Origin: a virus
Lineage: Duplodnaviria > Caudoviricetes
Direction: 5' to 3' (one strand)
Virus record (IMG/VR): IMGVR_UViG_3300032237_000764
Coordinates: 32,168 to 96,167 of that record
Length of the DNA stretch: 64,000 bases
Shown piece after piece: positions 3 to 18,944 of this stretch. Both the position numbers and the translations under genes were made by a program. The notes under the pieces were generated by a model that was given only the letters and a program-made list of their open reading frames with translations, searched no databases and had not been told where the DNA came from. Numbering within the stretch: position 1 is the first letter of the stretch; every line of letters begins with the position of its first letter.

Positions 3-761
3 TTTAATGATTTACAATGCTGGTATCATTCAAATGGATGTCCTAAAATTGAAGCCGTAATAAACGCCGCCGGGTATACTGGAAAACCTAACGTAGATTC
101 GTGTGAAATTGAAAAAACAACAACTATACATGGAAATATTATATGGACTCAAATATTAACTAATTGGTGTATGTTAAATAATATTTTAATTACACATATA
201 TCAAGTGGATGTATTTATAATGGAAAAAAAGACGACGGTAGTGGATTTTCGGAACAAGACGAGCCGAATTTTACATGGAAACAAAATAATTGTAGTTTTT
301 ATAGTGGATCCAAGGTTGTTGGTGAGAATATAATTTCTCAATGGAGTAAACATTATATTTGTAGATTGAGAATTCCATTCGAAGAAAATCATAATAATAG
401 AAACTATTTAAGTAAATTACTTAATTATAATCAATTATTAAATGCTGAAAATTCAATATCAAATAAAAATGAATTTGTAAATGCGGTGATACAAATGATA
501 CGTAATCATGTTCCTTTCGGTATATATAATATCACCAATACAGGCCATATCACAACTGAAGAAATAGTTAAAAAATTAAAAAAAACAATAGCAAAAAACA
601 AACAATTTAACTTTATTACTGAAAAAGAATTTTATTCTAACTTTGCAATAGCACCACGGTCAAATTGTATAATTAATAACAGCAAATTATTATCACTGGG
701 TATTAAAATGAGACCTGTTGACGAAGCGATAGATTATTGTTTGACAAACTGGAAATATTAA
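3..761 (+). CDS. RmlD-like / NRS-ER-type NDP-4-keto-6-deoxyhexose reductase, 5'-truncated by window edge
   Basis: Frame is open from nt 3 and contains INAAGYTGKPNVDSCE, HISSGCIY and YSGSK (YxxxK). Confidence 0.8.
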   Translation, partial: FNDLQCWYHSNGCPKIEAVINAAGYTGKPNVDSCEIEKTTTIHGNIIWTQILTNWCMLNNILITHISSGCIYNGKKDDGSGFSEQDEPNFTWKQNNCSFYSGSKVVGENIISQWSKHYICRLRIPFEENHNNRNYLSKLLNYNQLLNAENSISNKNEFVNAVIQMIRNHVPFGIYNITNTGHITTEEIVKKLKKTIAKNKQFNFITEKEFYSNFAIAPRSNCIINNSKLLSLGIKMRPVDEAIDYCLTNWKY

Positions 762-824
762 ACTTATTATACTAATAAAAATATTGACAATTAAGATATC
801 TAGCGTTAGAGTAAGAAATTTATT

Positions 825-2126
825 ATGAATAATCGAAAAGAATTGATACAAACATTTATTAATCAAATTAAAGAACAACAATTTGTTCCAGAGTTCTGTC
901 ACAACCTAAAACAATCAAAAAATAAAGTTTATTATTCAGGACCATCATTTACTGACGATGAGTTAATAGAAGCAATTGATTCATTGCTTTTTGGTAAATG
1001 GTTTAGTAGTGGAGAAAAGGTATATCGATTTGAAAGCGAATTTAGTAAGACTATTAATCAAAAATATTCTGTGATGGTAAACTCGGGAAGTTCTGCGAAT
1101 TTAGTATTGATTGCCGCATTAAAAAAATACTTTAATTGGCAAGACAATGATGAAGTTTTAATTTCTGTCGTTGGATTTCCAACTACATTAAATCCATTAA
1201 TCCAAAACAATCTAAAAGCAATATTTGTTGATATTGAATTTGATACTTTAAATTTTAATTTGACTCAGTTGGAAAGCAAAATTACATCAAAAACCAAAGC
1301 AATTTTTATTTCTCCCGTATTAGGAAATCCTCCTGATCTGGATCGTATCATTGAAATTGCCAATAAATATAAGTTAAAAATTGTTTTAGATGGATGCGAT
1401 AGTTATGGCAGTAGATGGAATAGTAAGCATTTGGCCGAATATGCAATTGCTTCCAGTTGCAGTTTTTATCCTGCGCATCACATCACCACTGGTGAAGGTG
1501 GTATGGTAAGTTCAAATATTGAAGAAATTGTCAAACTTGCTAGAACTTTTAGTTGGTGGGGACGTGATTGTTATTGTGTTGGCCCAGCAAATTTATTGAA
1601 AAATGGAAGTTGTAATTGTCGTTTCAGTAATTGGTTGAAAGATGTACCGTATGAAATTGATCATAAATATCTCTTTACCCAAATCGGATACAATTTAAAA
1701 CCACTTGATTTGCAAGGTGGTATTGGACTGGCTCAATTAAAGAAGGCTGAATCATTTCATGAAGCACGGCGTGTTAATAAAGAAAAAATTCAGTCGATTC
1801 TATCGAATATAAAAACTTTAAAATTTCCAAGTCAAGATCAACGTGCCGAAGTTTCTTGGTTTGGTGTACCGATTATTTGCAGAACATATGTCGAAAAATC
1901 AAATTTTGTAAATTATTTGGAAATCAATGGAATTCAAACTCGCAATTATTTTGCTGGTAACATTCTATTACATCCTGCATATCGTCATTTGGAAGATTGG
2001 AAAAACTATCCAAATGCAAATAGTGTGTTAGAAAAGGTTTTCTTTATTGGATGTGCTCCTACAATCACCGAAGATAATATTAAATATATTCAAGAAGTTA
2101 TTGAAAAATACAAATATGAAAATTGA
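825..2126 (+). CDS. rfbH: CDP-4-keto-6-deoxyglucose 3-dehydrase (RfbH/DdhC, DegT family)
   Basis: VNSGSSAN; SFYPAHHITTGEGG has His at the PLP-Lys position; WGRDCYC Cys motif. Confidence 0.88.
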   Translation: MNNRKELIQTFINQIKEQQFVPEFCHNLKQSKNKVYYSGPSFTDDELIEAIDSLLFGKWFSSGEKVYRFESEFSKTINQKYSVMVNSGSSANLVLIAALKKYFNWQDNDEVLISVVGFPTTLNPLIQNNLKAIFVDIEFDTLNFNLTQLESKITSKTKAIFISPVLGNPPDLDRIIEIANKYKLKIVLDGCDSYGSRWNSKHLAEYAIASSCSFYPAHHITTGEGGMVSSNIEEIVKLARTFSWWGRDCYCVGPANLLKNGSCNCRFSNWLKDVPYEIDHKYLFTQIGYNLKPLDLQGGIGLAQLKKAESFHEARRVNKEKIQSILSNIKTLKFPSQDQRAEVSWFGVPIICRTYVEKSNFVNYLEINGIQTRNYFAGNILLHPAYRHLEDWKNYPNANSVLEKVFFIGCAPTITEDNIKYIQEVIEKYKYEN

Positions 2127-2931
2127 TTTATTTGGTGGCACCGGGTTCATAGGCAGTAATTTTAAACGATTATATGATAGTGAATCTCATATTCATCATC
2201 GTGAAAATGACTATCCATTAGAAGAAAACGTGTTGTATATGATTAGCACAACACACAACTATAATGTATTTAGCGATTTACATAAAGACGTTGATACCAA
2301 TTTAACCAAACTGTTAAAGGTATTAGCTAAATGTAAAGATAAAAATATCACATTTAACTTTGTAAGTAGTTGGTTTGTTTATGGAGAATGTGCATTACCT
2401 GCATCCGAATCGGATTGCTGTAAACCAAAAGGATTTTATAGTATTACAAAAAAATGTGCTGAAGATTTATTAATTAGTTATTGTGAAACATTTAATATTA
2501 AATATAGAATCTTGCGTCTTTGTAATGTTTATGGAAAAACTGACGATGGCGTGTCCAAGCAAAAGAATGCGTTGCAATATTTAATAAATGAACTTAAATT
2601 AAATCGAGATATTAAATTATATTATAATGGTAATTTTATTAGAGATTATATGCATGTTGATGATATTTGTCGTGCAATTCATCTATGTATCACTAAAGCT
2701 GATACAAATCAGATCATTAATATTGGCAGCGGTATACCTCAGCGATTTAGAGACGTGATTGATTTTGTTATATGCGAAACAAAATCAACTAGCAATATTA
2801 TTCCTGTTGATGCCGTAGAATTCCATAAACTTGTCCAAGTCAAAGATATGTATTTAAATACAGAAAAACTAACTCAATTAGGGTTTAAACAAGAAATTAA
2901 TATTTATACCGGTATAAAACAATTGTTATGA
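2116..2931 (+). CDS. NAD-dependent epimerase/dehydratase (extended SDR)
   Basis: GGTGFIG directly after ATG 2116; YSITK; RDYMHVDD. Confidence 0.85.
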   Translation: MKIDLFGGTGFIGSNFKRLYDSESHIHHRENDYPLEENVLYMISTTHNYNVFSDLHKDVDTNLTKLLKVLAKCKDKNITFNFVSSWFVYGECALPASESDCCKPKGFYSITKKCAEDLLISYCETFNIKYRILRLCNVYGKTDDGVSKQKNALQYLINELKLNRDIKLYYNGNFIRDYMHVDDICRAIHLCITKADTNQIINIGSGIPQRFRDVIDFVICETKSTSNIIPVDAVEFHKLVQVKDMYLNTEKLTQLGFKQEINIYTGIKQLL

Positions 2932-3893
2932 TTAATATATTAGTTACAGGTGGATGTGGATTTATAGGTTCTCATTTTGTTGAAGAACTGTTAAAAAGTT
3001 CAAACATTGGATGTATTGTCAATATTGATAAAATGACATATGCAGCAAATAAAACATTACCGTTTCAATCGAATGAACATTATTTTTATCATAAAATGAA
3101 TATAAATTCTTCATGCATATTAGAAATTTTAAAAGAAAAAAACATCAATTATATTGTTCATTTTGCGGCTGAAAGTCATGTAGACAACAGTATTGCAGAC
3201 AGTGATCCGTTTATTAAAACTAATATTAATGGAACACACAGTTTGTTAAAAACTTCATTAAATTATATTAATAAAGGTGGCAATTTAATTAAATTTATAC
3301 ACGTATCCACTGATGAAGTGTATGGTAGTTTAAATTTTGATGATATACCTTTTACAGTTAATAGTCCATATCGTCCTAACAGTCCTTATGCAGCGAGCAA
3401 GGCTGCAAGTGATTTGCTGGTTCGTAGTTATGTTCATACACATAAATTTCCAGCCATTATTACCAATTGTAGCAATAACTTTGGTCCTCGTCAATTTTCT
3501 GAAAAGCTAATACCACTCTGTATTAAAAAATTAAAAAATAAACAATCGATACCCTTATATGGTAATGGAAAAAACATTCGCGATTGGATATACGTAAAAG
3601 ATCATGTAAATGCATTGATACAAGTATTATTGAACGGTAAAGTCGGTAGTCAGTATTTAATCGGTGGCGATAAAGAAATTTCTAATTATGAGTTAGTTCA
3701 TATTTTAGGATATGAATATACCAATCTTACCTTTACTAATATTGATTGGCCACTGTTTAACTTTGTAGAAGATCGTAAAGGACACGATTTGCGTTATGCA
3801 ATTGATACAGTAGAATTTAAAAAAGAGTTTCCTGATTGGAAACTCTCTTGCTTTTATGATAGTATCAAAAACACAGTAAAAAGCTATATTTAA
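2928..3893 (+). CDS. rfbB: dTDP-glucose 4,6-dehydratase
   Basis: GGCGFIG, HFAAESHVD, STDEVYG, PYAASK, DRKGHDLRY. Confidence 0.93.
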   Translation: MINILVTGGCGFIGSHFVEELLKSSNIGCIVNIDKMTYAANKTLPFQSNEHYFYHKMNINSSCILEILKEKNINYIVHFAAESHVDNSIADSDPFIKTNINGTHSLLKTSLNYINKGGNLIKFIHVSTDEVYGSLNFDDIPFTVNSPYRPNSPYAASKAASDLLVRSYVHTHKFPAIITNCSNNFGPRQFSEKLIPLCIKKLKNKQSIPLYGNGKNIRDWIYVKDHVNALIQVLLNGKVGSQYLIGGDKEISNYELVHILGYEYTNLTFTNIDWPLFNFVEDRKGHDLRYAIDTVEFKKEFPDWKLSCFYDSIKNTVKSYI

Positions 3894-7769: not shown

Positions 7770-8693
7770 TTATTTAATCATATGTTTATATTTATCTAAA
7801 TTATTAATTAAATACGATGGATACGTATCATCAATTTTTACTTTTGTCAATCTATCTCCATTAAAAATTACATCTTTTAAATTATTAAAATTATATTCTA
7901 TTTTTGATAGCAATTTTTCATTGTCAAATGATTGACAATCTCCAGATGATAATTTTGTTTTTATTGAGTCTACACCACCCATATAACTAAAATGCCATCC
8001 TCCATTCAGTATATCATTATTTGGCTGTGCTCTTAATTCATTATAAGAATAATTTTTTAATTTTTTATAACTTCCCATTCTAGAACCTTTCCAATTAGAG
8101 GATTTAATACCAGTATAGGGTTCTGCGCCGGGATAATCATGAATAACATTATTAATATGCGATTCTCTTAATACATTTAAATAATAATAATAACAGGTTT
8201 GATTGAACGAATAAAATTCATTTTCATCATAAAACTCCGAAAGTCTTGTTAATATTTTCGGATTAGGAATTTCATCACAGTCAGATGATATTATCACGTC
8301 ATCGTCTTCACAATTTTCCATACATCTTCTTATAGATTCCTTGATAAAAAAACTTCTACCAAATCTTGGTTCTGTGAATCTATTAAAACGTTCTGACGAC
8401 TTAATAAATGAAAATATTTGATTCAAACAAATATTATCAAAAGAAGTTTCTTCATAATGTGGTAAATTAATAAATTCATCTGGAAGATCATTTATAACTT
8501 TATGAATTATTTTGGGCAAAAATTTAGAAAATCTATCTTTATTTTTTAGAAATAAAGATTCTTTCTTTTCTCCTGACATTGTTTTTGTCCCCTCAATTAA
8601 TATAAAATGGTCAACAACTGAATTTAAAATATTAAGTCTGATTTCTAAAACATCTAATTCGTTAAAAAATGTAAAGCAGTCATAAATTTTCAT
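7770..8693 (-). CDS. GT17 (beta-1,4-GlcNAc-transferase-like) glycosyltransferase
   Basis: YDCFTFFNELDVLEIRL, SDCDEIP, GWHFSY. Confidence 0.85.
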   Translation of the reverse strand: MKIYDCFTFFNELDVLEIRLNILNSVVDHFILIEGTKTMSGEKKESLFLKNKDRFSKFLPKIIHKVINDLPDEFINLPHYEETSFDNICLNQIFSFIKSSERFNRFTEPRFGRSFFIKESIRRCMENCEDDDVIISSDCDEIPNPKILTRLSEFYDENEFYSFNQTCYYYYLNVLRESHINNVIHDYPGAEPYTGIKSSNWKGSRMGSYKKLKNYSYNELRAQPNNDILNGGWHFSYMGGVDSIKTKLSSGDCQSFDNEKLLSKIEYNFNNLKDVIFNGDRLTKVKIDDTYPSYLINNLDKYKHMIK

Positions 8694-8791: not shown

Positions 8792-9754
8792 ATGAAAAAA
8801 ATTTTTGTAACAGGAGCGGCCGGATTTATAGGAAGTAATTTAATTGATAGACTTTTATTATTAGGATATCGCGTTATAGGATGGGATAATTTCTCAACTG
8901 GTAAATTAAAATTTCTAGAAAAATCATTAAAAAATACCAATTTTGAATTGATTGAAGGTGATAATCTCAATTTGAATCACTTAACATCCTCCATGAAAGC
9001 ATGCGAGGTAGTATTTCATCTTGCAGCAAATGCAGATGTTCGATTTGGATTGAATCATCCATCCAAAGATTTGAATCAAAATACAATAGCAACATTCAAT
9101 GTATTACAAGCCATGAATGCTAATGGTATCAAGCGTATTATATTCAGTTCAACTGGAAGTGTTTATGGAGAAACAACTGTAATTCCTACACCAGAAAATG
9201 TAGGATTTCCCATTCAAACGTCTTTATATGGAGCATCTAAAGTAGCATGTGAAACCTTGATTCAAGCTTATTCAGAGGGTTACGGATTTGAATCTTATAT
9301 CTTTAGATTTGTATCTATTCTTGGTGAACGATATACACACGGTCATATTTTTGATTTTTATAAACAATTAATTGATCATCCCGATTATTTGAATGTACTT
9401 GGCGATGGTACACAGCGAAAGAGTTATTTATATGTTCAAGATTGCATTGATGCGATGCTGCATGTTTTGTCGGTACCTAAACAAAATAACGTAAATATTT
9501 ATAATCTCGGCACCGATGAATATGTCCAAGTAAATGATTCTATAAAATTTATTATAGATCATTTAGGAGTTTCTCCATTAATACAATATTCTGGCGGCAA
9601 AAAAGGATGGATCGGTGATAATCCATGTATCTTTTTAGATACAACGAAAGTTCGAAATACAGGATGGCAACCAAAATTAACAATTGAACAAGGTGTGATT
9701 TCTACAGTTAAATGGTTACAACAAAATCAATGGGTATATGAAAACAATAAATAA
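8792..9754 (+). CDS. NDP-sugar 4-epimerase (extended SDR; LmbM-like candidate)
   Basis: GAAGFIG, HLAANADV, SSTGSVYG, YGASK. Confidence 0.88.
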   Translation: MKKIFVTGAAGFIGSNLIDRLLLLGYRVIGWDNFSTGKLKFLEKSLKNTNFELIEGDNLNLNHLTSSMKACEVVFHLAANADVRFGLNHPSKDLNQNTIATFNVLQAMNANGIKRIIFSSTGSVYGETTVIPTPENVGFPIQTSLYGASKVACETLIQAYSEGYGFESYIFRFVSILGERYTHGHIFDFYKQLIDHPDYLNVLGDGTQRKSYLYVQDCIDAMLHVLSVPKQNNVNIYNLGTDEYVQVNDSIKFIIDHLGVSPLIQYSGGKKGWIGDNPCIFLDTTKVRNTGWQPKLTIEQGVISTVKWLQQNQWVYENNK

Positions 9755-11006
9755 ACTAGCAATATTTGGATTATGGCATTTGGGAAGTGTTATATCGACG
9801 TGTTGTGCCAAGCATTTTAATGTGATGGCATACGATCCATCATCTGAAGTAGTAGATAATTTAAATCTTGGAAACGCTCCTGTTTATGAGCCAGAATTAA
9901 ACAATCAACTCAAAGCAGAAATCACACGAAATCGGGTACAGTTCACAAATAATTTGTCGATTGCATGTAATCATGCAGATGTGTTTTGGATCACATATGA
10001 TACACCAGTTGACGAAAATGATTTGGCAGACAATACGTTTATCTATGAACGAATAGCTGAGATATGCAAGTTAAAACAATCAGCGGCAACAATCATTATT
10101 TCTTCTCAAATTGTTGCAACCACATGTGCAAAATTAGAAAGAGATTTTTCGCAACATACATTTGTATATATTCCTGAAAATTTAAGATTGGGAAAAGGTA
10201 TTGAAACCTTTGAAAATGCGGAGCGTTTTATTGTTGGATGTAGAAATAAAGATATAAACAAGTTAAAAGAATTGCTTGCACCATTTAACATTGAATTGGT
10301 TTTTATGAAATCGGAATCTGCTGAAATGGTTAAACATACAATCAATTCATTTTTGGCATTGTCTGTTACTTTTATTAATGAAATCGCAACAATATGTGAG
10401 CAAATTGACGCTGACGCACATGAAGTTTCTATTGGTGTTAAAAGTGATAAAAGAATTGGTAAAAGCGCATATTTGAAGCCGGGCGAACCATTTGCAGGAG
10501 GCACATTAGCTAGAGATGTAGTTTCACTGGACACGCTTCATAAATATTTTCAAGTCAAATCACCGATACTATCTTCAATAATAGAAAGCAATGAAAATCA
10601 TAAAAATTGGTATTTAAATCAATTAAATGCAATTCCATATAATAAATGTAAGAGTATATTATTTCTGGGACTTACCTATACGGAAAATACAAACACATTG
10701 CGTAGAAGCAATACATTAACATTATATAAAAAGTTAAATCGTCAAAATATTAAATTTTATGCATATGATAGTTTGGTAAAAACGCTACCAATTGAATTTG
10801 TTAATATTGAATTAATAAATAATATTGATGATCTTAATGTTGATATAGTTATTGTTTTTGGACATCAGAGTAGTTTTAAGTTATTGAATTATAATAAGTT
10901 ACAACACAAAGATACTCTATATTTTATAGATGCAAATCGTTATCTGTATGAACAAGTAAAACAACTATCAAACGTTAAATATATAACGGTTGGATCTATT
11001 ATTTAG
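9738..11006 (+). CDS. UDP-glucose/GDP-mannose dehydrogenase-family protein lacking the catalytic Cys (LmbL-like candidate)
   Basis: GLWHLG, PENLRLG, SAEMVKH; GGTLARD replaces GGSCxxKD. Confidence 0.82.
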   Translation: MKTINKLAIFGLWHLGSVISTCCAKHFNVMAYDPSSEVVDNLNLGNAPVYEPELNNQLKAEITRNRVQFTNNLSIACNHADVFWITYDTPVDENDLADNTFIYERIAEICKLKQSAATIIISSQIVATTCAKLERDFSQHTFVYIPENLRLGKGIETFENAERFIVGCRNKDINKLKELLAPFNIELVFMKSESAEMVKHTINSFLALSVTFINEIATICEQIDADAHEVSIGVKSDKRIGKSAYLKPGEPFAGGTLARDVVSLDTLHKYFQVKSPILSSIIESNENHKNWYLNQLNAIPYNKCKSILFLGLTYTENTNTLRRSNTLTLYKKLNRQNIKFYAYDSLVKTLPIEFVNIELINNIDDLNVDIVIVFGHQSSFKLLNYNKLQHKDTLYFIDANRYLYEQVKQLSNVKYITVGSII

Positions 11007-11008
11007 TT

Positions 11009-11851
11009 ATGAATGTTATTATAACAGGTGCAAGTCAAGGATTTGGTAGTAGTATAGCCGAGAAGTTCTTGAAAGAGGGAGCAAATATATCCATTTGTGG
11101 ACGAGATGAACAGCAATTGGCAGAACGACTGGCTTCATTAAAACAAACATACAAATCCAAAATTATTGGATATTCATGTGATGTTTCTAAAGAATACCAA
11201 GTTAAAACATTCATCGATAAATCTATTGAAGAATTACAAACAATAGATGCTATTGTTTTAAATGCGGGAATTTATGGTCCTATGGGGCCAATTGAATCTG
11301 TTGATTTTGATGCGTTTAAATATGCATTAGAAGTTAATTTATATGGTGTAGTATTGCCGTGTAAATATATCGTGCCTCATTTTAAACAAAACAATTGTGG
11401 CAAGATTATAATGATTAGTGGTGGTGGAGCAACAACACCAATGCCATATATTACAGGATATGCAGCAAGCAAAGCTGCTAGTATTCGATTCATGGAAAGT
11501 ATTTCATTGGAGTTAAAATCCTTTAATATTGATGTTAATGCAGTAGCACCGGGTGCATTGGCAACTCGTTTGGTTGATTCTGTATTGAATGCTGGACCTG
11601 AGTTAATAGGAAAAGAATTCTACGAAAAAAATCTAAAGTGGAAAAATGAAGGAGCAACTTCACCCGAATTGGGTGCAAATTTAGTTTGGTTTTTAGCTAA
11701 TTATCATAGCGATAAAATCACTGGTAAATTAATTAGTGCTCAATGGGATGATTGGAAAAATTTACCGTTACATTTAAAAGAATTGAACTCAAGTGATATA
11801 TACTGTTTGAGAAGAATTGTACCCGAAGATAGAAATAAAAATTGGAATTGA
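11009..11851 (+). CDS. Classical SDR oxidoreductase
   Basis: TGASQGFG, NAG, YAASK, VAPG. Confidence 0.9.
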   Translation: MNVIITGASQGFGSSIAEKFLKEGANISICGRDEQQLAERLASLKQTYKSKIIGYSCDVSKEYQVKTFIDKSIEELQTIDAIVLNAGIYGPMGPIESVDFDAFKYALEVNLYGVVLPCKYIVPHFKQNNCGKIIMISGGGATTPMPYITGYAASKAASIRFMESISLELKSFNIDVNAVAPGALATRLVDSVLNAGPELIGKEFYEKNLKWKNEGATSPELGANLVWFLANYHSDKITGKLISAQWDDWKNLPLHLKELNSSDIYCLRRIVPEDRNKNWN

Positions 11852-11852
11852 T

Positions 11853-12818
11853 ATGAAAATAGCAATTATAGGATGTGGATTAATTGGTCAAAAACGTGCA
11901 AAGTTACTTCAAAATGTTGATATTGCATGCGATATAAATTTAGAAAATGCCAAGAAAGTTGCTGGTTTGTTTTCGAATAGTATTGTAACAACTAATGTTG
12001 AAGACGTTGTTGCATCTGATGTGGATGTAGTATTTATTTCCGTTGCCAATTCATCATTGGCTCCAATTGCGACACGACTGGCCAGAACTGGAAAACATGT
12101 ATTATTGGAAAAACCGGGAGGTATTACTGCTGATGAATTGATAAAACTAAAAGATATTAGTTTGAAGAATAATGCTTTGATTCGTATTGGTTATAATCAT
12201 CGTTATCATCCTGCATGTTTAAAGGCATTAGAATTGATAAAACAACCAGAGTTTGGTAATATTATGTTTGTACGTGGTCGTTATGGTCATGGTGGAAGAA
12301 TTGGGTATGAAAAAGAATGGCGAGCAAATGTATCTATATCAGGTGGAGGTGAATTAATAGATCAAGGAGTACATTTGATAGATTTGGCGAGTATTTTTAT
12401 TGGAAAATTTAACACAATCGAAGGACATATACATACATATTATTGGAACATGAATGTTGATGACAACGCATTTATAAGTCTACAAAATAAAAACAAAAAC
12501 ACAGCATGGTTACATGTCAGTTGTACCGAATGGAAAAATACATTCAGTTTTGAAATATATGGCACAAATGCAAAGTTACATTGGGAAGGTTTGGGTGGTA
12601 GTTATGGTGTTGAACGTTTAACACACTATCAAATGTTACCACAAATGGGTCCACCACAAACTATAACATATGAATATCCAATGGGCGACAATTCATGGAA
12701 AATAGAAATGGATGAATTTTTTGAAGATATTCGATTGCAACGTCAACCTATTCCCGGTTTGAATGAAGGAATTGAAACATTAAAAGTCGTCGATACATTA
12801 TACAAACAAAAAATATGA
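11853..12818 (+). CDS. Gfo/Idh/MocA oxidoreductase (LmbZ-like candidate)
   Basis: MKIAIIGCGLIG, LLEKP, GYNHRY, GGELIDQGVHLID. Confidence 0.9.
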   Translation: MKIAIIGCGLIGQKRAKLLQNVDIACDINLENAKKVAGLFSNSIVTTNVEDVVASDVDVVFISVANSSLAPIATRLARTGKHVLLEKPGGITADELIKLKDISLKNNALIRIGYNHRYHPACLKALELIKQPEFGNIMFVRGRYGHGGRIGYEKEWRANVSISGGGELIDQGVHLIDLASIFIGKFNTIEGHIHTYYWNMNVDDNAFISLQNKNKNTAWLHVSCTEWKNTFSFEIYGTNAKLHWEGLGGSYGVERLTHYQMLPQMGPPQTITYEYPMGDNSWKIEMDEFFEDIRLQRQPIPGLNEGIETLKVVDTLYKQKI

Positions 12819-13795
12819 TTATTGTAAGATCACCATTACGTATTAGTTTAGGAGGAGGCGGAACTGATTTACCATCTTATTATGCAAAATTTGGTGGATA
12901 CTTTATTTCGGCGGCAATCAACAAATATATTTACATTACATTGAATGATAATTTTTCAGATCAATTAATTGTAAAATATTCAAAGATGGAAAAGGTAGAC
13001 GATTCAAATAAAATTGAACATCCTATTTTACGTGAAGCATTTGCATTGACGCGAACCAAAGGAGTTGGATTAGAGTTGTGTTCAATGGCAGATATTCCGT
13101 CGGGCACAGGTTTAGGATCATCTAGTAGTTTTACAGTTGCTGTATTAAAAGCTTTACATGTTTATAATCATAATATCATTAGTACACACACTTTGGCAGA
13201 ACAAGCATGTGATATTGAAATCAATAGACTAAAAGAACCTATTGGAAAACAAGATCAATTTATATCAGCATATGGTGGTATTACAGAGTTTGATATTGAT
13301 ACCAATGGTAATATAAATGTAAACCCCATTCCATTATCGAACGATACGGTAAATGATCTTAGTGAAAATTTACTATTGTTTTTTACTGGATATTCGCGTT
13401 CTGCATCTCATATTCTAAAAGAACAAGATCAAAAATCAAAAAATTCAGATGAGGAAATGTTCAAAAATTTACATTACGTAAAACAAATTGGTGTTCAAAG
13501 TTACAAAGCATTTACAAGTGGAAATTTAATTGAATTTGCCAATTTAATGAATGAGCATTGGGAATATAAGAAAAGTCGTAGCAAAAACATGAGCAATGCG
13601 CATATTAATGCATGGTATGATTTGGCGTTAAAAAATGGCGCATTGGGTGGTAAACTTATAGGTGCTGGTGGTGGAGGATTTTTAATGTTTTATGCAGAAA
13701 ACAAAAAAAATCTTCGTAGAGTTATGCGTGAAGCAGGATTAACGGAAGTTCATTTTACATTCGATTTTGAAGGAACAAAACAAATCTTAGCATGA
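12815..13795 (+). CDS. GHMP sugar-1-kinase (HddA/LmbP-like)
   Basis: PLRISLGGGGTD, PSGTGLGSSS, GKQDQ, GAGGGG. Confidence 0.9.
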   Translation: MIIVRSPLRISLGGGGTDLPSYYAKFGGYFISAAINKYIYITLNDNFSDQLIVKYSKMEKVDDSNKIEHPILREAFALTRTKGVGLELCSMADIPSGTGLGSSSSFTVAVLKALHVYNHNIISTHTLAEQACDIEINRLKEPIGKQDQFISAYGGITEFDIDTNGNINVNPIPLSNDTVNDLSENLLLFFTGYSRSASHILKEQDQKSKNSDEEMFKNLHYVKQIGVQSYKAFTSGNLIEFANLMNEHWEYKKSRSKNMSNAHINAWYDLALKNGALGGKLIGAGGGGFLMFYAENKKNLRRVMREAGLTEVHFTFDFEGTKQILA

Positions 13796-14484
13796 GTAAT
13801 ATACCATTTATTATATTAGCTGGCGGATTAGCTACTAGATTAAAACCTATTACTAATACAATTCCAAAGGCATTGGTGCCTGTGGCTGGTAAACCGTTTA
13901 TCTATCATCAGTTGGAATTACTAAATGAAAACGATATCAATCATGTGGTGTTGTGTCTTGGTCATTTGGGAGAAATGGTAGAAAAAGAAGTTGGAAACAG
14001 TTATAAAAACATAAAAATTGATTATTCTTACGACGGCGAAAAATTGCTTGGAACAGGTGGCGCAGTTAAAAAAGCAATCGAAAACGTTGATGATGTGTTT
14101 GGCGTTTTATATGGTGATTCTTATTTACCAATTATTTATAAGCACGTAATTGATTATTATAATGTTTGTAAAAAACTAGGATTGATGACTGTCTATGCCA
14201 ATGATAACAAATATGATACTAGTAATACTGTGTTTCAGCATAAACAAATATTAAAGTATAGTAAAACTGAAATTCTACCTGAAATGAATTATATTGATTA
14301 TGGGTTTAGTATTTTGCATAAATCTGCATTTGATTCATTCACTGATGCTTTTGATCTATCAAAAGCAATAATCCAGCTAATTGAACAAAATCAACTAGCT
14401 GGATATGAGGTTTATAACCGATTTTATGAAATTGGATCTTTTAAAGGTCTTTATGAATTGGAATCAAAGTTGCAATCCAGATGA
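13792..14484 (+). CDS. Sugar-1-phosphate nucleotidyltransferase (HddC/LmbO-like)
   Basis: ILAGGLATRL, PKAL, LGTGGA, YGDSY, EIGS. Confidence 0.9.
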   Translation: MSNIPFIILAGGLATRLKPITNTIPKALVPVAGKPFIYHQLELLNENDINHVVLCLGHLGEMVEKEVGNSYKNIKIDYSYDGEKLLGTGGAVKKAIENVDDVFGVLYGDSYLPIIYKHVIDYYNVCKKLGLMTVYANDNKYDTSNTVFQHKQILKYSKTEILPEMNYIDYGFSILHKSAFDSFTDAFDLSKAIIQLIEQNQLAGYEVYNRFYEIGSFKGLYELESKLQSR

Positions 14485-15177
14485 TTTGGCATCAGTATAA
14501 AACATTTGAACTGTCTCAATTGTATACTCGGTTAGATTTTTATTCTGTAATGATAGTTTTTTGATTTGATCTGGCGTAACTGTAATAATATCACAACCTA
14601 TACGATCAGCTTCATAAATATTATATACTTCTCTGGTACTTGCCCATAATATTTCACATTGATCTTTTAATAAAGCTTGCGCTAAGTTAATCGTACAAAT
14701 AGGATTTCTACCCGTGTCTGCAATGCGTCCGGCAAAAATAGATACTATGTTTGTTTTATTCGGTGCAGATGGTAAATGATCTTTTAATAATAATAGTTGA
14801 TCAAGTGTAAACACCGCAGTTACGTTGACTTTGACATTGTTTTCATTCAGTTTGTATATCAGATCATGTGTACTTTCTCCCAATGTATTAACAATAGGAA
14901 TTTTAACATGAATGTTTTCACCAAAAGAAGCAATTTTTTGTGCTTGATATAACATTCCGTGATAATCGTCTGCAAAAACCTCAAATGAGATTGATAAATC
15001 TTTAATTTTTGAAGTTACTTCTTTAATAAATTTTTCATAATTAGTAACACCGGCTTTTTTCATCAAACTAGGATTTGTTGTAAATCCTTTTACTAATTTG
15101 TTGTTTTCATATAAATCAAATATTTCATTGATATTTGATCCGTCTGCAAATATTTTAATATTCATAAGACAATCCAT
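14464..15177 (-). CDS. tal: Transaldolase (small TalC/FSA type; LmbR-like candidate)
   Basis: FAD, GFTTNPSL, VKIP Schiff-base Lys, NVTAVF, LWASTRE. Confidence 0.9.
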   Translation of the reverse strand: MDCLMNIKIFADGSNINEIFDLYENNKLVKGFTTNPSLMKKAGVTNYEKFIKEVTSKIKDLSISFEVFADDYHGMLYQAQKIASFGENIHVKIPIVNTLGESTHDLIYKLNENNVKVNVTAVFTLDQLLLLKDHLPSAPNKTNIVSIFAGRIADTGRNPICTINLAQALLKDQCEILWASTREVYNIYEADRIGCDIITVTPDQIKKLSLQNKNLTEYTIETVQMFYTDAKSSGLQL

Positions 15178-16057
15178 TAACTATTAAGTGCAATACAATT
15201 CCTTGCCATTCTTCTGCATGTGGTGTAACTCTACTATTATCCACAACAGGTATTAGTAAGCATACATCCGACAATTCTTTAGCTTTGCCACCCCCACGAC
15301 TAACAACAGATAATATGGTTCCTTTACAAGATTTTGTATATTCCATCGCTTTAACTAAATTTTGTGAAGTTGTATTGCTACCTCCACCCACACTAAACAC
15401 CAATAAAATATCATTTGCGTTTAATTTTGATGTTTTAAGCCATTCTGAATAGCAAGTGTCCCAGCCAACATCATTGATTCTGGCAGTTAGCTCAGCAACA
15501 TTTTCAGAAATAGAATATGTTTCAATGTTACAGATTTTTCTAAAATCGTTCACAGCATGCGCTGCATTAGCAGCACTGCCACCTACACCGGCCATAAAAA
15601 TTCTACCATTTTGTTGCTGGCATTTTTTAATAGTAGATAACAACAAATTTAAATCTTTTTGATTGATAAGATCTGCGATTTGTTTTACTTCGGATAAATA
15701 TTGTTGAATATAAGCAGCGGCATTCATAATTGGTATTTTTATATTATTTTGTTCTCTCCATGTTTGTGCGTTTATGGCTTTATCATCGATAAATAGATCA
15801 AAATGTGGTTTATTTTTATCAATCAATTCATGATATTTGACTCCCCAGTTATTGAGTTGGGAAAGATTCAATTCGTGATAGTCAATTTTAGAAGTTCCGC
15901 CTCTTGCTGTATATATGATAATTTTATTACCAGTATCATACAATTCGTTTATTTTATTCACTACTTCTTGATAAGGATACGCATCCTTATAATTTTTACC
16001 GATGGTATGGCAGATTGTATTATCTAAATCAAAACAATAAGTAATAATATTTTTCAT
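15155..16057 (-). CDS. Fusion of HAD-IIIC phosphatase and SIS (GmhA-like) sugar-phosphate isomerase
   Basis: N-terminal FDLDNT..YTARG..KP..FIDDKA; C-terminal GVGGSAANAAH, ND..W, FSVGGG, HAE. Confidence 0.85.
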   Translation of the reverse strand: MKNIITYCFDLDNTICHTIGKNYKDAYPYQEVVNKINELYDTGNKIIIYTARGGTSKIDYHELNLSQLNNWGVKYHELIDKNKPHFDLFIDDKAINAQTWREQNNIKIPIMNAAAYIQQYLSEVKQIADLINQKDLNLLLSTIKKCQQQNGRIFMAGVGGSAANAAHAVNDFRKICNIETYSISENVAELTARINDVGWDTCYSEWLKTSKLNANDILLVFSVGGGSNTTSQNLVKAMEYTKSCKGTILSVVSRGGGKAKELSDVCLLIPVVDNSRVTPHAEEWQGIVLHLIVNGLSYEY

Positions 16058-16058
16058 A

Positions 16059-16757
16059 TTAACTAATTTTATAATCTTTTGCCGCCGTATATTTTTTTTC
16101 TTTTTCTTCTATTTCTTTTGTAATAGAAGAACTTGTTTGATCTTCATGAATTCTATTGACCACTGTTATATAATTACATATACTTGGCAAACCGAATCTA
16201 TCATATAATCTTTTATAATAATCAACATCCATTAACCAACATAAATTTTCATCAAATTCAATGACATTTTCATTTTTAAACATTAATACACTCGGCGAAC
16301 TTATTGTATTTTCTCCATGTTGAATATTATCATGATATTTTGGATAGTGTTCATTAAAAAAATGAACCGAATTCTTAGTATGACAACAAGCTGTGACTAA
16401 CCAATGATTTGAATTGCTTAATATATGAAATAGTTGCAGTTCTAAACTTTGCGTTCCAAATAAAAAATCATCTTGATACAATATTTTTATAAAATCTCCG
16501 TTTGCTTTTTTTATTGCAAAATTAGTATTTTGCGACATTCCATATTTTTCTCGATTTCTAAAATATTTTATATTCAATCTATCATTCCATTTTTTACATA
16601 AATTTTCTATTTCATCATTTTTACTATTATCTGATATAATAATATTAAAATTTTTATATGTTTGTGAATGTAGTATGTTAAATGAATAATTTAAATATCC
16701 TACCCCACTTCCATTCATTTCATATGTTGGGATACATATACTAATTAGAGAATTCAT
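16059..16757 (-). CDS. Glycosyltransferase family 2
   Basis: ISICIPTY, ISDNS, LYQDD, LMDVD. Confidence 0.85.
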   Translation of the reverse strand: MNSLISICIPTYEMNGSGVGYLNYSFNILHSQTYKNFNIIISDNSKNDEIENLCKKWNDRLNIKYFRNREKYGMSQNTNFAIKKANGDFIKILYQDDFLFGTQSLELQLFHILSNSNHWLVTACCHTKNSVHFFNEHYPKYHDNIQHGENTISSPSVLMFKNENVIEFDENLCWLMDVDYYKRLYDRFGLPSICNYITVVNRIHEDQTSSSITKEIEEKEKKYTAAKDYKIS

Positions 16758-17406
16758 AAGTTATAAATCTTTTATCAAAAATATACGGTTCTAATCTTTC
16801 TACAATCCACGGCATTCTTTCGTGGGTTTCTAATAATTCTACTAGTTTACAATAAAATTGTTTGCTTCTAATATGTACCGTTTCTTTGGAAACACAAAAA
16901 TGTCCACCGGGAATAAATTCATATTCATTTGGAGTTTTTGACTTAAATAAAACATTCCAAATCTCATTGATATTTAAATTTTTTTCATGGGGATAACCAT
17001 TACTACTACAGGCTAACACATTTCCAGAAAAAAATTGTTGTGATTTATGTAAATTCCACATAGTTCCTATCGAATTCCAATGATATCCTTTATAACCATC
17101 AAATTTTAAACTTGCATAATTGTTTCTATATTCTTCGTTGCCATTAATTAATTCGATGTAATTTTCAACATGGTCAAAAGGATAATCTTGAGAGAAAAAT
17201 ATTGTATCGGACAATTCATCATAATTTTTATATAAATGATTGAAAAAAGTATGAACGTCTCTACCAACATTGTTTTCTAATAAAATTTCTTTAGGATGTG
17301 TTGTTAAATTACCTTTTCTATAAATTATAATTTTAACATCTGAATTTATTTTTGAAATCCAAGAAATGTTTTTATCATAAAGCGATATTATTAATTCTGT
17401 GTTCAT
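16741..17406 (-). CDS. DUF3431-like protein (putative GT-associated)
   Basis: NVGRDVHTFFNH, FSQDYPFDH, GGHFCVS, ERL. Confidence 0.7.
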   Translation of the reverse strand: MNTELIISLYDKNISWISKINSDVKIIIYRKGNLTTHPKEILLENNVGRDVHTFFNHLYKNYDELSDTIFFSQDYPFDHVENYIELINGNEEYRNNYASLKFDGYKGYHWNSIGTMWNLHKSQQFFSGNVLACSSNGYPHEKNLNINEIWNVLFKSKTPNEYEFIPGGHFCVSKETVHIRSKQFYCKLVELLETHERMPWIVERLEPYIFDKRFITYEFSN

Positions 17407-18236
17407 ATTTGAATCCATTCTGTTGGAATTAAATCTATGGTATTTAAATTATTAAATGATGGACCAAACCATTTTTTTGGTGCAATTACTATTTTCTCTG
17501 GATTTGGATTTAACCACGCCCCCCACCATCCAAATGTACTATTTCCTATTATATTGTGTGTGCATAACGACATTATACACAAATCAACATAATGAGAATT
17601 TCCCTCTACATAATAAATTGATTTATTTTCTCCAAAAACATTTTTACACCAATCAATGTCATCCGAAAATATAAAATATTGATACTCTTTATTATCATAA
17701 ACTTTATTTATGGCATTTTGATAGTAATCTACTTCCATTATAGGAAATTTATCTTGAATTCCGAGATAATCTCCTATTCTTACATGAATTGAAACAATAT
17801 CTGTTTTTTTATTTTTATTTATTATTTCTAATGCTTTATTTTGAATTTCTTTTTTAAATTGTAATTTTTCTCTTACAATATTTGTAGCGTGTTTAAAATA
17901 TTTCTCGCTTTGAAAGTATCCTTCCAAATTTGTATTGTCTTTAATATTAAAGACATTTTTATCAAAATGAAAATGGGATTCTTTATAGGTATTTTCTAAT
18001 GTCGCACCGTTATTATCTTTAATATCAATATCAAAACAATCAAATAAATCAAGTTTATAACTTATCCATTTGTTTGTAGACATATCTAAACAACCGTTTG
18101 GTTTAATATGTTTATTTTTTTCAATCGGTATTGATGGAATAAAATTATTTTTATGGGCAACTCCAAATAAAGTAGCTATTTGAAATAATTGATTTCCTAA
18201 TCTGCCGTCATATCCGATATTATTGATACTTATCAT
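17403..18236 (-). CDS. GT11 alpha-1,2-fucosyltransferase-like
   Basis: GRLGNQLFQ, GYFQS, HVRIGDY, FSDD, NSTFGWWGA. Confidence 0.9.
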   Translation of the reverse strand: MISINNIGYDGRLGNQLFQIATLFGVAHKNNFIPSIPIEKNKHIKPNGCLDMSTNKWISYKLDLFDCFDIDIKDNNGATLENTYKESHFHFDKNVFNIKDNTNLEGYFQSEKYFKHATNIVREKLQFKKEIQNKALEIINKNKKTDIVSIHVRIGDYLGIQDKFPIMEVDYYQNAINKVYDNKEYQYFIFSDDIDWCKNVFGENKSIYYVEGNSHYVDLCIMSLCTHNIIGNSTFGWWGAWLNPNPEKIVIAPKKWFGPSFNNLNTIDLIPTEWIQI

Positions 18237-18275
18237 TTATTTTATATTATTTTTTAATCTAATTTATAATTTTTA

Positions 18276-18944
18276 TTATAAGCTAAATCCTAAATTTTCT
18301 TCGATTGTAAAAAGTTTATTATACTTTAAATTTGTTTCAACTTGTTTTTCAATAGTTTTATTGTGATGTAATGCAAAGTCAAAAGAAGCTGGTAAATATG
18401 TAAATGATTTAGCACCTTCAATTTTTTCATGCAATCGTCGTCCCCATCTAAGATGGGGTAGATTTTTAAACAATCTACCCTGTGGATCTGGCCAATTTAC
18501 GATTGATCGATTTTCATAATTTGTTAATCGCCAACCCCATCGATTTGCAATTTCGGGTGTAACGCCTTTAAAATCATTTATACGAGGAATCCAAAACAAT
18601 TCTATGGATTCATTTGCTATGATGATTTCATATAAATTACTTAATAATATTTCAGATGGTAATTCATCTGAATCTATTTGAAATATATATTTTCCTTTAC
18701 ATAACGCTTTACCATAGTTTTTGTGTGCGCTGTAGTTATTATCTAATTTATGTTGATGAATAGATACACCATCTGTTGTTTTATAACTGTTTAAATAATT
18801 TATTGTAACATCATCAGTGGAAAAATCATCAATTACTACGATTTCATTATTTTTATTGTATTTCAACAATAGATCGATTAATTGTTTAAATTGATCGCCC
18901 TCGTTTTTACACGTTACTAAATAACTAACAAATGAGGTTTCCAT
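18276..18944 (-). CDS. Glycosyltransferase family 2
   Basis: IDDFSTD, QIDSDE, WPDPQGR, LHE. Confidence 0.85.
   Translation of the reverse strand: METSFVSYLVTCKNEGDQFKQLIDLLLKYNKNNEIVVIDDFSTDDVTINYLNSYKTTDGVSIHQHKLDNNYSAHKNYGKALCKGKYIFQIDSDELPSEILLSNLYEIIIANESIELFWIPRINDFKGVTPEIANRWGWRLTNYENRSIVNWPDPQGRLFKNLPHLRWGRRLHEKIEGAKSFTYLPASFDFALHHNKTIEKQVETNLKYNKLFTIEENLGFSL

What the first reader, a model, noticed from the sequence alone, without database searches (positions are those of the whole stretch)
8792..16057. Phage-encoded lincosamide-like NDP-octose pathway
Seen: seven contiguous genes plus an SDR encode a transaldolase, an SIS isomerase fused to a HAD phosphatase, a GHMP kinase, a nucleotidyltransferase, a 4-epimerase, a UDP-glucose-dehydrogenase homolog without its catalytic Cys, and a Gfo/Idh/MocA enzyme. 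Known: lincomycin GDP-octose synthesis uses the same families (LmbR, N, K, P, O, M and the LmbL/LmbZ 6,8-dehydration pair). A plain GDP-heptose route needs neither a dedicated transaldolase nor the L/Z pair. Inference: the phage makes an activated 8-carbon deoxy-sugar, with the SDR reducing the 6-keto group where lincosamide producers use an aminotransferase, probably to glycosylate the virion or cell surface. The transaldolase would then be biosynthetic rather than the usual pentose-phosphate auxiliary gene.
Basis: partly seen in the sequence, partly recalled or inferred. Interest (0 to 1): 0.8.

Follow-up and report, generated by a model that had tools for sequence, protein, structure and literature searches.

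The report
Phage-borne octose-type sugar cassette
A very large lake phage carries a complete eight-gene set, shared with hundreds of Verrucomicrobiota genomes, whose key enzymes are the nearest relatives of those that build the eight-carbon sugar of the antibiotic lincomycin; it most likely makes an activated 8-carbon deoxy-sugar for a glycan, but the chain length is not proven.

Summary
In detail: all eight genes lie at the stated coordinates with the stated families, including the HAD-SIS fusion and a UDP-glucose-dehydrogenase homologue with Leu in place of the catalytic Cys. The contig is a real T4-like phage. Relatives reach 336 kb.

Four of the enzymes are specifically lincosamide-like.
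- The Cys-less dehydrogenase forms a starred clade with LmbL-type proteins and shares five derived motifs.
- The SIS isomerase is sister to LmbN-type proteins and lies outside GmhA.
- The epimerase and the Gfo/Idh/MocA enzyme hit LmbM- and LmbZ-type genes 2-3 times better than any other Streptomyces paralogue.

Other parts are not lincosamide-like.
- The transaldolase is a TIGR02134 ("Staphylococcus-type") transaldolase, not an LmbR or TalC relative.
- The kinase scores higher against heptose kinases than against LmbP-like genes.
- No LmbS-type aminotransferase is present.

The cassette, SDR included, is not a phage invention. It is a conserved operon in Verrucomicrobiota, where this transaldolase always sits beside the SIS and kinase genes.

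Earlier notes of this scan describe the same bacterial cassette on other DNA. Among the notes I saw, the phage copy is noted only for this stretch.

An NDP-8-deoxy-octose product is likely (about 0.55). A heptose product is not excluded.

The parts
8792..9754 (+). Extended-SDR NDP-sugar epimerase, LmbM-like
   Evidence: Pfam Epimerase E 1e-47. In five Streptomyces genomes the top hit is the LmbM-position gene of the lmb-like cluster (208-223 bits, 37-40% identity) against at most 96 bits for any other paralogue. It is 64-72% identical to Verrucomicrobiota cassette copies.
9738..11006 (+). UDP-glucose-dehydrogenase-family protein without the catalytic Cys, LmbL-like
   Evidence: Three UDPG_MGDP_dh domains. 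GGTLARD replaces GGSCFPKD. 111 of 121 sequences (the query and its 120 best hits) carry AGGTLARD. Tree: clade with Streptomyces LmbL-position proteins 100/98*, apart from canonical UGDHs. Shared derived motifs GLWHLG, SxQ, PENLRLG, G-x-T-L-x-R-D and TLR(R/D)S.
11009..11851 (+). Classical SDR, proposed ketoreductase; conserved cassette member with no counterpart in lmb-like clusters
   Evidence: adh_short E 8e-48. Present between the LmbL-like and LmbZ-like genes in 78 of 83 loci. No hit in the Streptomyces clusters at E 1e-5. No solved structure at E 1e-25 or better.
11853..12818 (+). Gfo/Idh/MocA oxidoreductase, LmbZ/CcbZ-like (ORF opens at TTG 11817; likely start ATG 11853)
   Evidence: Pfam GFO_IDH_MocA N and C domains. 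Top hit in five Streptomyces genomes is the LmbZ-position gene (132-148 bits) against at most 53 bits for other paralogues. Start codon.
12815..13795 (+). GHMP sugar-phosphate 1-kinase (HddA/LmbP class)
   Evidence: GHMP N and C domains. HddA model 181 bits, below the cut-off of 600. Closest solved chains are heptose-7-phosphate kinases 3K85, 4USK and 4N3O, E 1e-43 to 1e-46. 24-30% identical to LmbP-position genes.
13792..14484 (+). Sugar-1-phosphate nucleotidyltransferase (HddC/LmbO/MurU class); base specificity unknown
   Evidence: NTP_transferase E 3e-18. HddC model 90 bits (cut-off 300), MurU model 95 bits. 24-27% identical to LmbO-position genes.
14464..15177 (-). Short transaldolase of the TIGR02134 type, with an intact transaldolase catalytic set
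   Evidence: TIGR02134 287.2 bits (cut-off 281.95); FSA/TalC model 94 bits. Asp, Glu, Schiff-base Lys, Asn-x-Thr and Phe are present. 41-47% identical to the Verrucomicrobiota cassette transaldolases that follow SIS/HAD in the fetched loci and 46-51% to those beside SIS and the kinase in ten variant cassettes. Outside the TalC/FSA clade.
15155..15745 (-). SIS ketose-phosphate isomerase domain (residues 105-300 of the fusion), LmbN-like
   Evidence: SIS_2; GmhA model 54 bits against a cut-off of 209. Tree: transaldolase-linked SIS clade 100/99*, sister to LmbN-position proteins 97/91*, apart from the GmhA clade 100/99*.
15746..16057 (-). Minimal HAD phosphatase domain (residues 1-104) fused to the SIS domain; specific to this phage lineage
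   Evidence: Motifs DLDNT, YTAR and K..FIDD. TIGR01689 capsule biosynthesis phosphatase E 1e-6. PDB 9IQW E 3e-14. Among all fetched loci it is found only in the phage relatives L002 and L274; bacterial cassettes use a GmhB-type HAD instead.
16059..18944 (-). Context: four co-transcribed putative transferases upstream of HAD-SIS and the transaldolase (GT2, DUF3431, GT11, GT2); candidate users of the sugar
   Evidence: Pfam hits. Abutting or overlapping ORFs on the same strand. No evidence for which donor they use.

Best explanation
The eight genes are one biosynthetic cassette for a nucleotide-activated higher-carbon sugar, most likely an 8-deoxy-octose, used by the phage's own glycosyltransferases.

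Proposed route:
1. The transaldolase moves a three-carbon unit from fructose-6-P or sedoheptulose-7-P onto ribose-5-P, giving octulose-8-P.
2. The SIS domain isomerises it to the aldose.
3. The GHMP kinase phosphorylates C1.
4. The fused HAD domain removes the terminal phosphate.
5. The nucleotidyltransferase makes the NDP-octose.
6. The LmbM-like epimerase and the LmbL-like/LmbZ-like pair epimerise and 6,8-dehydrate it to a keto-deoxy intermediate.
7. The SDR reduces the keto group, where lincosamide producers transaminate.

Shown here: the gene content; intact catalytic motifs of the transaldolase and the HAD domain; specific relatedness of four enzymes to LmbL, LmbM, LmbN and LmbZ; conserved linkage of all parts in bacteria and phages.

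Inferred: every substrate and product, the chain length, the nucleotide, and the acceptor (virion or cell surface).
For: Lincosamide-type relatedness:
- LmbL type: clade 100/98* with Streptomyces LmbL-position proteins and five shared derived motifs, including Cys to Leu.
- LmbN type: the transaldolase-linked SIS clade is sister to LmbN-position proteins (97/91*) and separate from GmhA. The same Verrucomicrobiota genomes also hold a near-canonical GmhA (168-192 bits against 48-53 bits for the cassette SIS).
- LmbM and LmbZ types: the best hits in five Streptomyces genomes lie inside the lmb-like cluster, with 2-3 times the score of any other paralogue.
- Those clusters have the published gene order K-L-M-N-Z-P-O-S-R (PMC4351081).

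A dedicated transaldolase:
- In an even sample of 401 Verrucomicrobiota genomes, all 11 with the LmbL-type gene have this transaldolase (Fisher p 3e-12). In 10 of the 11 it lies within about 3-9 kb on the same contig.
- In 10 of 10 further loci it lies beside the SIS gene, and directly beside the kinase gene in 8 of them.
- 3 of 5 genomes also have a separate long housekeeping transaldolase.

Chemistry and distribution:
- LmbR makes octulose-8-P from ribose-5-P plus F6P or S7P, and an ordinary transaldolase can do the same (PMC5854111).
- LmbM, LmbL, CcbZ and CcbS convert GDP-octose to GDP-lincosamide (PMC12945683).
- The cassette is syntenic in related phage contigs (L002; L274 on a 336,558-bp scaffold). 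Divergent versions occur in other viral contigs (L259, L269).
Against: - The transaldolase is not orthologous to LmbR. It passes the TIGR02134 model, a family I recall as annotated as the housekeeping transaldolase of Staphylococcus and Coxiella. It is 47-50% identical to a Staphylococcus-type copy and only 24-29% identical to LmbR-like proteins. The latter score best to FSA/TalC and differ at two catalytic positions.
- The transaldolase tree backbone is unresolved.
- The kinase scores higher against solved heptose-7-P kinases (150-160 bits, phmmer) than against LmbP-like genes (96-115 bits, tblastn). The nucleotidyltransferase scores 90 bits on the HddC model, against 38 for an LmbO-like protein.
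- Identity to Lmb-type proteins is only 24-40%, so substrates may differ.
- Two of five Verrucomicrobiota genomes showed no other transaldolase, so the cassette copy could also serve central metabolism.
- I found no report of a linear octose in any bacterial or viral glycan.
Confidence: 0.55

Rival explanations
1. The cassette makes a modified NDP-heptose. The SIS, kinase, HAD and nucleotidyltransferase work as in the GDP-D-glycero-alpha-D-manno-heptose route. The transaldolase only raises the sedoheptulose-7-P supply, which is useful in an infected cell. The LmbM/L/Z-like trio and the SDR tailor the heptose in a way not yet described.
For: - The kinase's closest solved relatives are heptose-7-P kinases, E 1e-43 to 1e-46.
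- HddA, HddC and GmhA are the best or near-best named NCBIfam hits.
- The transaldolase belongs to a family I recall as annotated as a general transaldolase and has the full transaldolase catalytic set.
- Some cassette genomes show no other transaldolase.
Against: - All heptose-model scores are far below the curated cut-offs: 54 against 209, 181 against 600, and 90 against 300.
- The SIS domain is outside the GmhA clade and sister to LmbN-like proteins, and a near-canonical GmhA coexists in the same bacterial genomes.
- Sedoheptulose-7-P is a central metabolite, so a transaldolase fixed beside the isomerase in bacteria that also have a housekeeping one is hard to explain.
- The 6,8-dehydration known for LmbL/CcbZ needs a three-carbon side chain (established knowledge, from memory and PMC12945683).
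- One locus (L280) holds a transaldolase-linked module and a transaldolase-less module in tandem, which implies two substrates.
Confidence: 0.27
2. The cassette makes some other sugar. This could be a nine-carbon product from a hexose-phosphate acceptor, or a pentose route of the recently described phage arabinose type in which a SIS isomerase and a kinase activate arabinose-5-P. The Lmb-like enzymes would then perform unrelated redox chemistry.
For: - Acceptor specificity of the transaldolase cannot be read from sequence.
- Tailoring sets around the SIS-transaldolase-kinase core vary widely between loci.
- Other notes of this scan point to phage pentose-activation cassettes.
Against: - The SIS domain is of the GmhA/LmbN type (SIS_2), not the KdsD type.
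- A pentose route needs no transaldolase.
- No specific evidence favours a nine-carbon product.
Confidence: 0.1
3. The transaldolase is an ordinary phage auxiliary metabolic gene for the pentose phosphate pathway, like cyanophage talC, and lies next to the sugar genes by chance.
For: - PHROGs places it in phrog_440, 'transaldolase', E 2e-34.
- 425 phage records hold a homologue, mostly cyanophages.
Against: - It is only 32-37% identical to the listed cyanophage TalC copies and lies outside the TalC/FSA clade.
- Its linkage to the SIS and kinase genes is conserved in bacteria, in related phages and in unrelated viral contigs.
Confidence: 0.04

Closest known systems
[quoted passage not shown]
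   Same: The enzyme families correspond one to one. The LmbL-, LmbM-, LmbN- and LmbZ-like proteins are specifically related. The epimerase gene directly precedes the LmbL-like gene in both. A private short transaldolase is present in both.
   Different: The transaldolase comes from another subfamily (TIGR02134, not FSA/TalC-like). There is no LmbS-type aminotransferase and a classical SDR stands in its place. The phosphatase is a minimal HAD fused to the isomerase, not GmhB-like. There are no carrier-protein domains. The setting is a glycosyltransferase island in a phage, not an antibiotic cluster. Identities are only 24-40%.
Uncharacterised nine-gene cassette of Verrucomicrobiota and other bacteria (epimerase, Cys-less UGDH-like, SDR, Gfo/Idh/MocA, GHMP kinase, nucleotidyltransferase, SIS, HAD, transaldolase)
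   Same: Same genes in the same order, 40-72% identity. Found in at least 558 GTDB species genomes. The SDR is a fixed member.
   Different: In bacteria SIS and HAD are separate genes and the HAD is GmhB-like. All genes are co-oriented. G+C is 56% against 32%. I found no paper describing it. Earlier notes of this scan describe it on other DNA.
GDP-D-glycero-alpha-D-manno-heptose pathway (GmhA, HddA, GmhB, HddC)
   Same: Same four enzyme classes and the same reaction logic. The kinase's closest solved structures belong here.
   Different: No model cut-off is reached. The isomerase is outside the GmhA clade. The heptose route has no transaldolase and no LmbL/LmbZ-type pair.
Cyanophage TalC transaldolase (auxiliary metabolic gene)
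   Same: A short class transaldolase encoded by a T4-like phage.
   Different: A different subfamily, 32-37% identical. Here it is embedded in a sugar-nucleotide cassette, so its role is probably biosynthetic.

Membership tests
Lincosamide-type octose pathway (Lmb/Ccb) | LmbL-type UGDH homologue lacking the catalytic Cys | tested here: met
   Clade 100/98* with LmbL-position proteins of five Streptomyces clusters. Shared motifs GLWHLG, PENLRLG and G-x-T-L-x-R-D.
Lincosamide-type octose pathway (Lmb/Ccb) | LmbZ/CcbZ-type Gfo/Idh/MocA partner | tested here: met
   The best hit in 5 of 5 Streptomyces genomes is the LmbZ-position gene, 132-148 bits against at most 53 for other paralogues. No tree was made.
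Lincosamide-type octose pathway (Lmb/Ccb) | LmbM-type epimerase | tested here: met
   The best hit in 5 of 5 genomes is the LmbM-position gene, 208-223 bits against at most 96.
Lincosamide-type octose pathway (Lmb/Ccb) | LmbN-type octulose-8-P isomerase (SIS) | tested here: met
   Sister to LmbN-position proteins at 97/91*, apart from GmhA. The tool gave a long-branch warning.
Lincosamide-type octose pathway (Lmb/Ccb) | LmbR-type transaldolase | tested here: not met
   A transaldolase is present and linked, but it is of the TIGR02134 type (287 bits). LmbR-like proteins score best to FSA/TalC (88-143 bits) and carry Gln/Leu where the window protein has Glu/Phe. The tree is unresolved.
Lincosamide-type octose pathway (Lmb/Ccb) | LmbP kinase, LmbO guanylyltransferase, LmbK phosphatase orthology | tested here: inconclusive
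   Homologous at 24-30%. The kinase scores higher against solved heptose kinases. The HAD domain gives no hit in the Streptomyces clusters and is of another HAD subtype.
Lincosamide-type octose pathway (Lmb/Ccb) | LmbS/CcbS 6-aminotransferase | tested here: not met
   None in the cassette. The only DegT-family gene of the window (825-2126) is RfbH-like (374 bits) and 19% identical to the LmbS-position protein.
Lincosamide-type octose pathway (Lmb/Ccb) | Eight-carbon substrate and product | not testable with these tools
   Needs enzyme assays or glycan chemistry.
GDP-glycero-manno-heptose pathway (GmhA/HddA/GmhB/HddC) | Equivalog-level match to GmhA, HddA and HddC | tested here: not met
   54 against a cut-off of 209, 181 against 600, and 90 against 300 bits. 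The SIS domain is outside the GmhA clade.
UDP-glucose 6-dehydrogenase | Catalytic Cys in GGxCxPKD | tested here: not met
   Leu at that position.
TIGR02134 transaldolase (Staphylococcus type) | Score above the curated cut-off, and the transaldolase catalytic residues | tested here: met
   287.2 against 281.95 bits. Asp, Glu, Lys, Asn-x-Thr and Phe are present.
Cyanophage TalC / FSA group | Placement inside the TalC/FSA clade | tested here: not met
   The TalC plus FSA clade (92/87) excludes the window protein. TIGR00875 gives 94 bits against a cut-off of 246.

The most novel reading that the evidence does not exclude
A lineage of roughly 340-kb lake phages makes a nucleotide-activated linear 8-deoxy-octose and installs it with its own battery of glycosyltransferases on the virion or the infected cell. 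I found no report of such a sugar in any glycan, and its enzyme logic is so far known only from lincomycin. This would also be the first biosynthetic, non-pentose-phosphate role shown for a phage transaldolase. It would point to a large hidden family of octose pathways in Verrucomicrobiota and other bacteria.
Probability: 0.5. Interest if true: 0.8.

Novelty: new variant of a known kind. Interest (0 to 1): 0.62.

Why it matters
- If the product is an octose, the lincosamide sugar logic is not an oddity of two Streptomyces antibiotics. It would be a widespread way to build surface sugars, and large phages have adopted it.
- It would add a new monosaccharide class to bacterial and viral glycobiology.
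- It would give the widespread Cys-less UGDH homologues and their Gfo/Idh/MocA partners a function.
- It would warn that phage transaldolases cannot all be counted as pentose-phosphate auxiliary genes in metagenome surveys.
- The phage enzymes are compact (a fused HAD-SIS) and A+T-rich, which may make them convenient for reconstitution.

Tried and rejected
- **Giant eukaryotic virus.** I suspected this from the GT11, GT17 and DUF3431 hits and the low G+C. I rejected it because of the T4-type polymerase, clamp loader, baseplate hub and DnaB helicase.
- **Transaldolase tree** against LmbR, TalC and FSA. The backbone was unresolved, and three rows came from wrongly picked ORFs in high-G+C loci. 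I relied on HMM scores and catalytic residues instead.
- **Primary lincosamide papers.** PMC7547251, PMC3486926 and PMC3932030 are not held. I used a review and two open papers instead.
- **GenBank phages.** No LmbL-type gene in 50,697 records; only canonical UGDHs at 31% identity or less over most of the query. The two 'Staphylococcus phage' records with a 47-50% identical transaldolase lack annotation there, and one is marked UNVERIFIED_ORG, so they probably hold host DNA.
- **IMG/VR pattern scan.** It returned only 15 loci. Two hold divergent full cassettes, and nine hold a shorter UGDH-like piece next to an SDR that I did not resolve.
- **Promoter and terminator scan.** Uninformative.
- **Kinase and nucleotidyltransferase trees.** Not made, because no bona fide HddA or HddC sequences were available by reference.
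- **The upstream DegT gene as the missing aminotransferase.** Rejected: it is RfbH-like.

Full report
**What is there**

The window is part of a 96-kb IMG/VR virus record that CheckV estimates to be 27% complete. G+C is about 30%.

Several genes mark it as a large tailed phage with T4-like replication genes:
- a full-length T4-type DNA polymerase (phrog_262, E 1e-168), a clamp loader and a PD-(D/E)XK exonuclease;
- upstream, a baseplate hub, a DnaB-type helicase and a ribonucleotide reductase.

I first suspected a giant eukaryotic virus because of the GT11, GT17 and DUF3431 hits. These phage genes rule that out.

A protein 46% identical to the window's UGDH-like protein lies on a 336,558-bp scaffold with the same cassette and the same flanking genes. 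The lineage is therefore one of very large phages.

**Check of the observation**

All eight ORFs are at the stated coordinates and have the stated families.
- The UGDH homologue aligns over its whole length with solved UDP-glucose dehydrogenases. It reads GGTLARD where they read GGSCFPKD, so the nucleophilic Cys is Leu.
- The HAD-SIS fusion is real. Residues 1-104 carry the HAD motifs and match the small 'capsule biosynthesis' phosphatases (PDB 9IQW, E 3e-14). The rest is a GmhA/LmbN-type SIS domain.
- The Gfo/Idh/MocA gene probably starts at the ATG at 11853.
- The cassette's G+C (31.6%) is that of the phage, not of its bacterial relatives (56%). It is flanked by phage genes in three related contigs. 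It is therefore not an assembly chimera.

**The cassette is a widespread bacterial operon**

The 120 best database hits of the UGDH-like protein nearly all carry AGGTLARD: 111 of 121 sequences, counting the query.

A scan of one genome per GTDB species gave at least 558 genomes with a relative. The best 80 are nearly all Verrucomicrobiota.

Comparing the eight window proteins with 83 fetched loci shows one conserved order: epimerase, UGDH-like, SDR, Gfo/Idh/MocA, GHMP kinase, nucleotidyltransferase, SIS, HAD, transaldolase. Identities to the phage proteins are 40-72%.

On the UGDH-family tree, the six rows I labelled viral form one clade (100/99*), sister to the bacterial cassette clade. I checked the genomic context for the window and three of those rows; P0002 and P0007 were labelled viral without a check. 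This points to one old capture that the phage lineage has kept.

The short N-terminal HAD domain occurs only in the phage relatives. Bacterial cassettes use a GmhB-like HAD. The phage lineage has therefore replaced the phosphatase and fused it to the isomerase.

**Direct comparison with lincosamide genes**

No Lmb sequence was at hand, so I looked for one.
- I searched 401 Streptomyces genomes with the window transaldolase. Six genomes matched.
- In all five that I checked, the best UGDH-like hit lies 6-11 kb from the transaldolase hit.
- The fetched clusters hold homologues of seven window proteins. Two clusters have the order L-M-N-Z ... P-O-(S)-R, which is the published lmb/ccb order (PMC4351081). 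Three are compact, with the order R-S-O-P-Z-N-M-L-K.

Results by protein:
- **LmbL.** The LmbL-position proteins read SGSTLQRD or AGATLHRD, the same Cys-to-Leu and Lys-to-Arg changes as in the window. They also share GLWHLG (canonical GTGYVG), PENLRLG (canonical PEFLREG) and two further motifs. They form a 100/98* clade with the cassette proteins, apart from canonical UGDHs of the same genomes and of E. coli.
- **LmbZ and LmbM.** The window Gfo/Idh/MocA protein hits the LmbZ-position gene at 132-148 bits against at most 53 for any other paralogue. The epimerase hits the LmbM-position gene at 208-223 bits against at most 96.
- **LmbN.** On the SIS tree, all transaldolase-linked isomerases, the window's included, form one clade (100/99*). 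That clade is sister to the LmbN-position proteins (97/91*). It is separate from E. coli GmhA plus the near-canonical GmhA copies that the same Verrucomicrobiota genomes also hold. The tool flagged long branches at this join, so I treat it as good but not final evidence.

**What is not lincosamide-like**

- The transaldolase passes the TIGR02134 model (287 bits against a cut-off of 282). It is 47-50% identical to a Staphylococcus-type copy. It has the Asp, Glu, Lys, Asn-x-Thr and Phe set of true transaldolases.
- LmbR-like proteins score best to the FSA/TalC model and carry Gln and Leu at two of those positions. The tree does not resolve how these groups relate. It only shows that the window protein is outside the TalC/FSA clade.
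LmbR itself is the TalC-like one.
- The kinase scores higher against solved heptose-7-P kinases (150-160 bits, phmmer) than against LmbP-like genes (96-115 bits, tblastn).
- The nucleotidyltransferase is not diagnostic either.
- There is no LmbS-type aminotransferase. The DegT gene at 825-2126 is RfbH-like and belongs with the neighbouring 4,6-dehydratase genes.

**Is the transaldolase dedicated?**

In an even sample of 401 Verrucomicrobiota genomes, 41 hold this transaldolase and 11 hold the LmbL-type gene. All 11 hold both (Fisher p 3e-12), and in 10 of them the two genes lie on one contig within a few kb.

I fetched ten transaldolase loci that lack a close LmbL-type gene. In all ten the transaldolase lies beside a SIS gene, and in eight it lies between the SIS and GHMP kinase genes. 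The tailoring sets vary: some have a more distant UGDH-like gene, some have none.

Three of five cassette genomes also have a long housekeeping transaldolase.

One locus holds a transaldolase-linked module and a transaldolase-less module side by side. The SIS protein of the second module is closer to GmhA.

The transaldolase is thus a pathway enzyme that feeds the isomerase. Sedoheptulose-7-P is a central metabolite, so this favours a product that the cell does not otherwise make. LmbR makes octulose-8-P from ribose-5-P, and ordinary transaldolases can do so too (PMC5854111).

**Mechanism and its limits**

The best-supported model is an NDP-octose route. After activation come epimerisation, 6,8-dehydration by the LmbL-like/LmbZ-like pair, and keto-reduction by the SDR, which together give an NDP-8-deoxy-octose. 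The roles of LmbM, LmbL, CcbZ and CcbS in converting GDP-octose to GDP-lincosamide are documented (PMC12945683). The detailed order of their steps is from my memory of the 2020 PNAS paper, which I could not open.

The chain length, the nucleotide and the acceptor are all inferences. A tailored heptose remains a serious rival.

**Novelty**

I found no paper on a phage or Verrucomicrobiota octose pathway, and no LmbL-type gene in 50,697 GenBank phage records.

Earlier notes of this scan describe the bacterial cassette repeatedly on other DNA, and transaldolase-primed sugar cassettes of other designs in phages. They agree with what I found independently. Among the notes I saw, the phage-borne LmbL/M/N/Z-type cassette is noted only for this stretch.

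Noticed in passing
window 3-3893: A second sugar pathway: RmlD-like reductase (open at the 5' end), RfbH-like PLP enzyme (374 bits, just below the cut-off), a partial epimerase/dehydratase ORF and a dTDP-glucose-4,6-dehydratase-like gene (348 bits against a cut-off of 365). It looks like a 3,6-dideoxyhexose-type route.
   Followed up: partly
L002 4453-8128; L274 1-2678: Related phage contigs carry a TPP-dependent enzyme, an acetaldehyde-dehydrogenase-like gene and an HMGL-like aldolase next to the cassette. The set recalls branched-chain (yersiniose-type) sugar synthesis. It is not present in the window.
   Followed up: no
window 7770-8693, 16741-17418, 17403-18236: Transferase families more usual in eukaryotes or their viruses (GT17-like, DUF3431, GT11 fucosyltransferase-like) sit in a tailed-phage genome.
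   Followed up: no
L215, L216, L217 (unnamed Streptomyces genomes G217, G383, G119): A compact cluster R-S-O-P-Z-N-M-L-K lies next to a seryl-tRNA-synthetase-like ligase. It is distinct from the lmb/ccb-type order in G212 and G347, and may be an undescribed amino-octose natural-product cluster.
   Followed up: partly
L280 7708-14983: A Verrucomicrobiota locus with two sugar-activation modules in tandem. One has a transaldolase and a divergent SIS protein (52 bits to GmhA). The other has no transaldolase and a more GmhA-like SIS protein (101 bits).
   Followed up: partly
L260-L268 around 10001-11500: Nine IMG/VR contigs hold a shorter UGDH-like match (query residues 80-292, 38% identity), directly followed by an SDR gene in eight of them, without the rest of the cassette. 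Their nature is unknown.
   Followed up: no
OR844993.1 1798-2496; MG543995.1 131950-132519: Two 'Staphylococcus phage' GenBank records contain a Staphylococcus-type transaldolase with no annotation there. One record is flagged UNVERIFIED_ORG. This is probably host DNA in the assemblies.
   Followed up: partly
window 9738-9790: The dinucleotide-binding loop of the LmbL-type family reads GLWHLG instead of GxGxxG. It is invariant in the 12 cassette-type proteins aligned (A1) and present in two of the five Streptomyces LmbL-like proteins (the other three read GDWHLA). NAD binding may be altered.
   Followed up: partly
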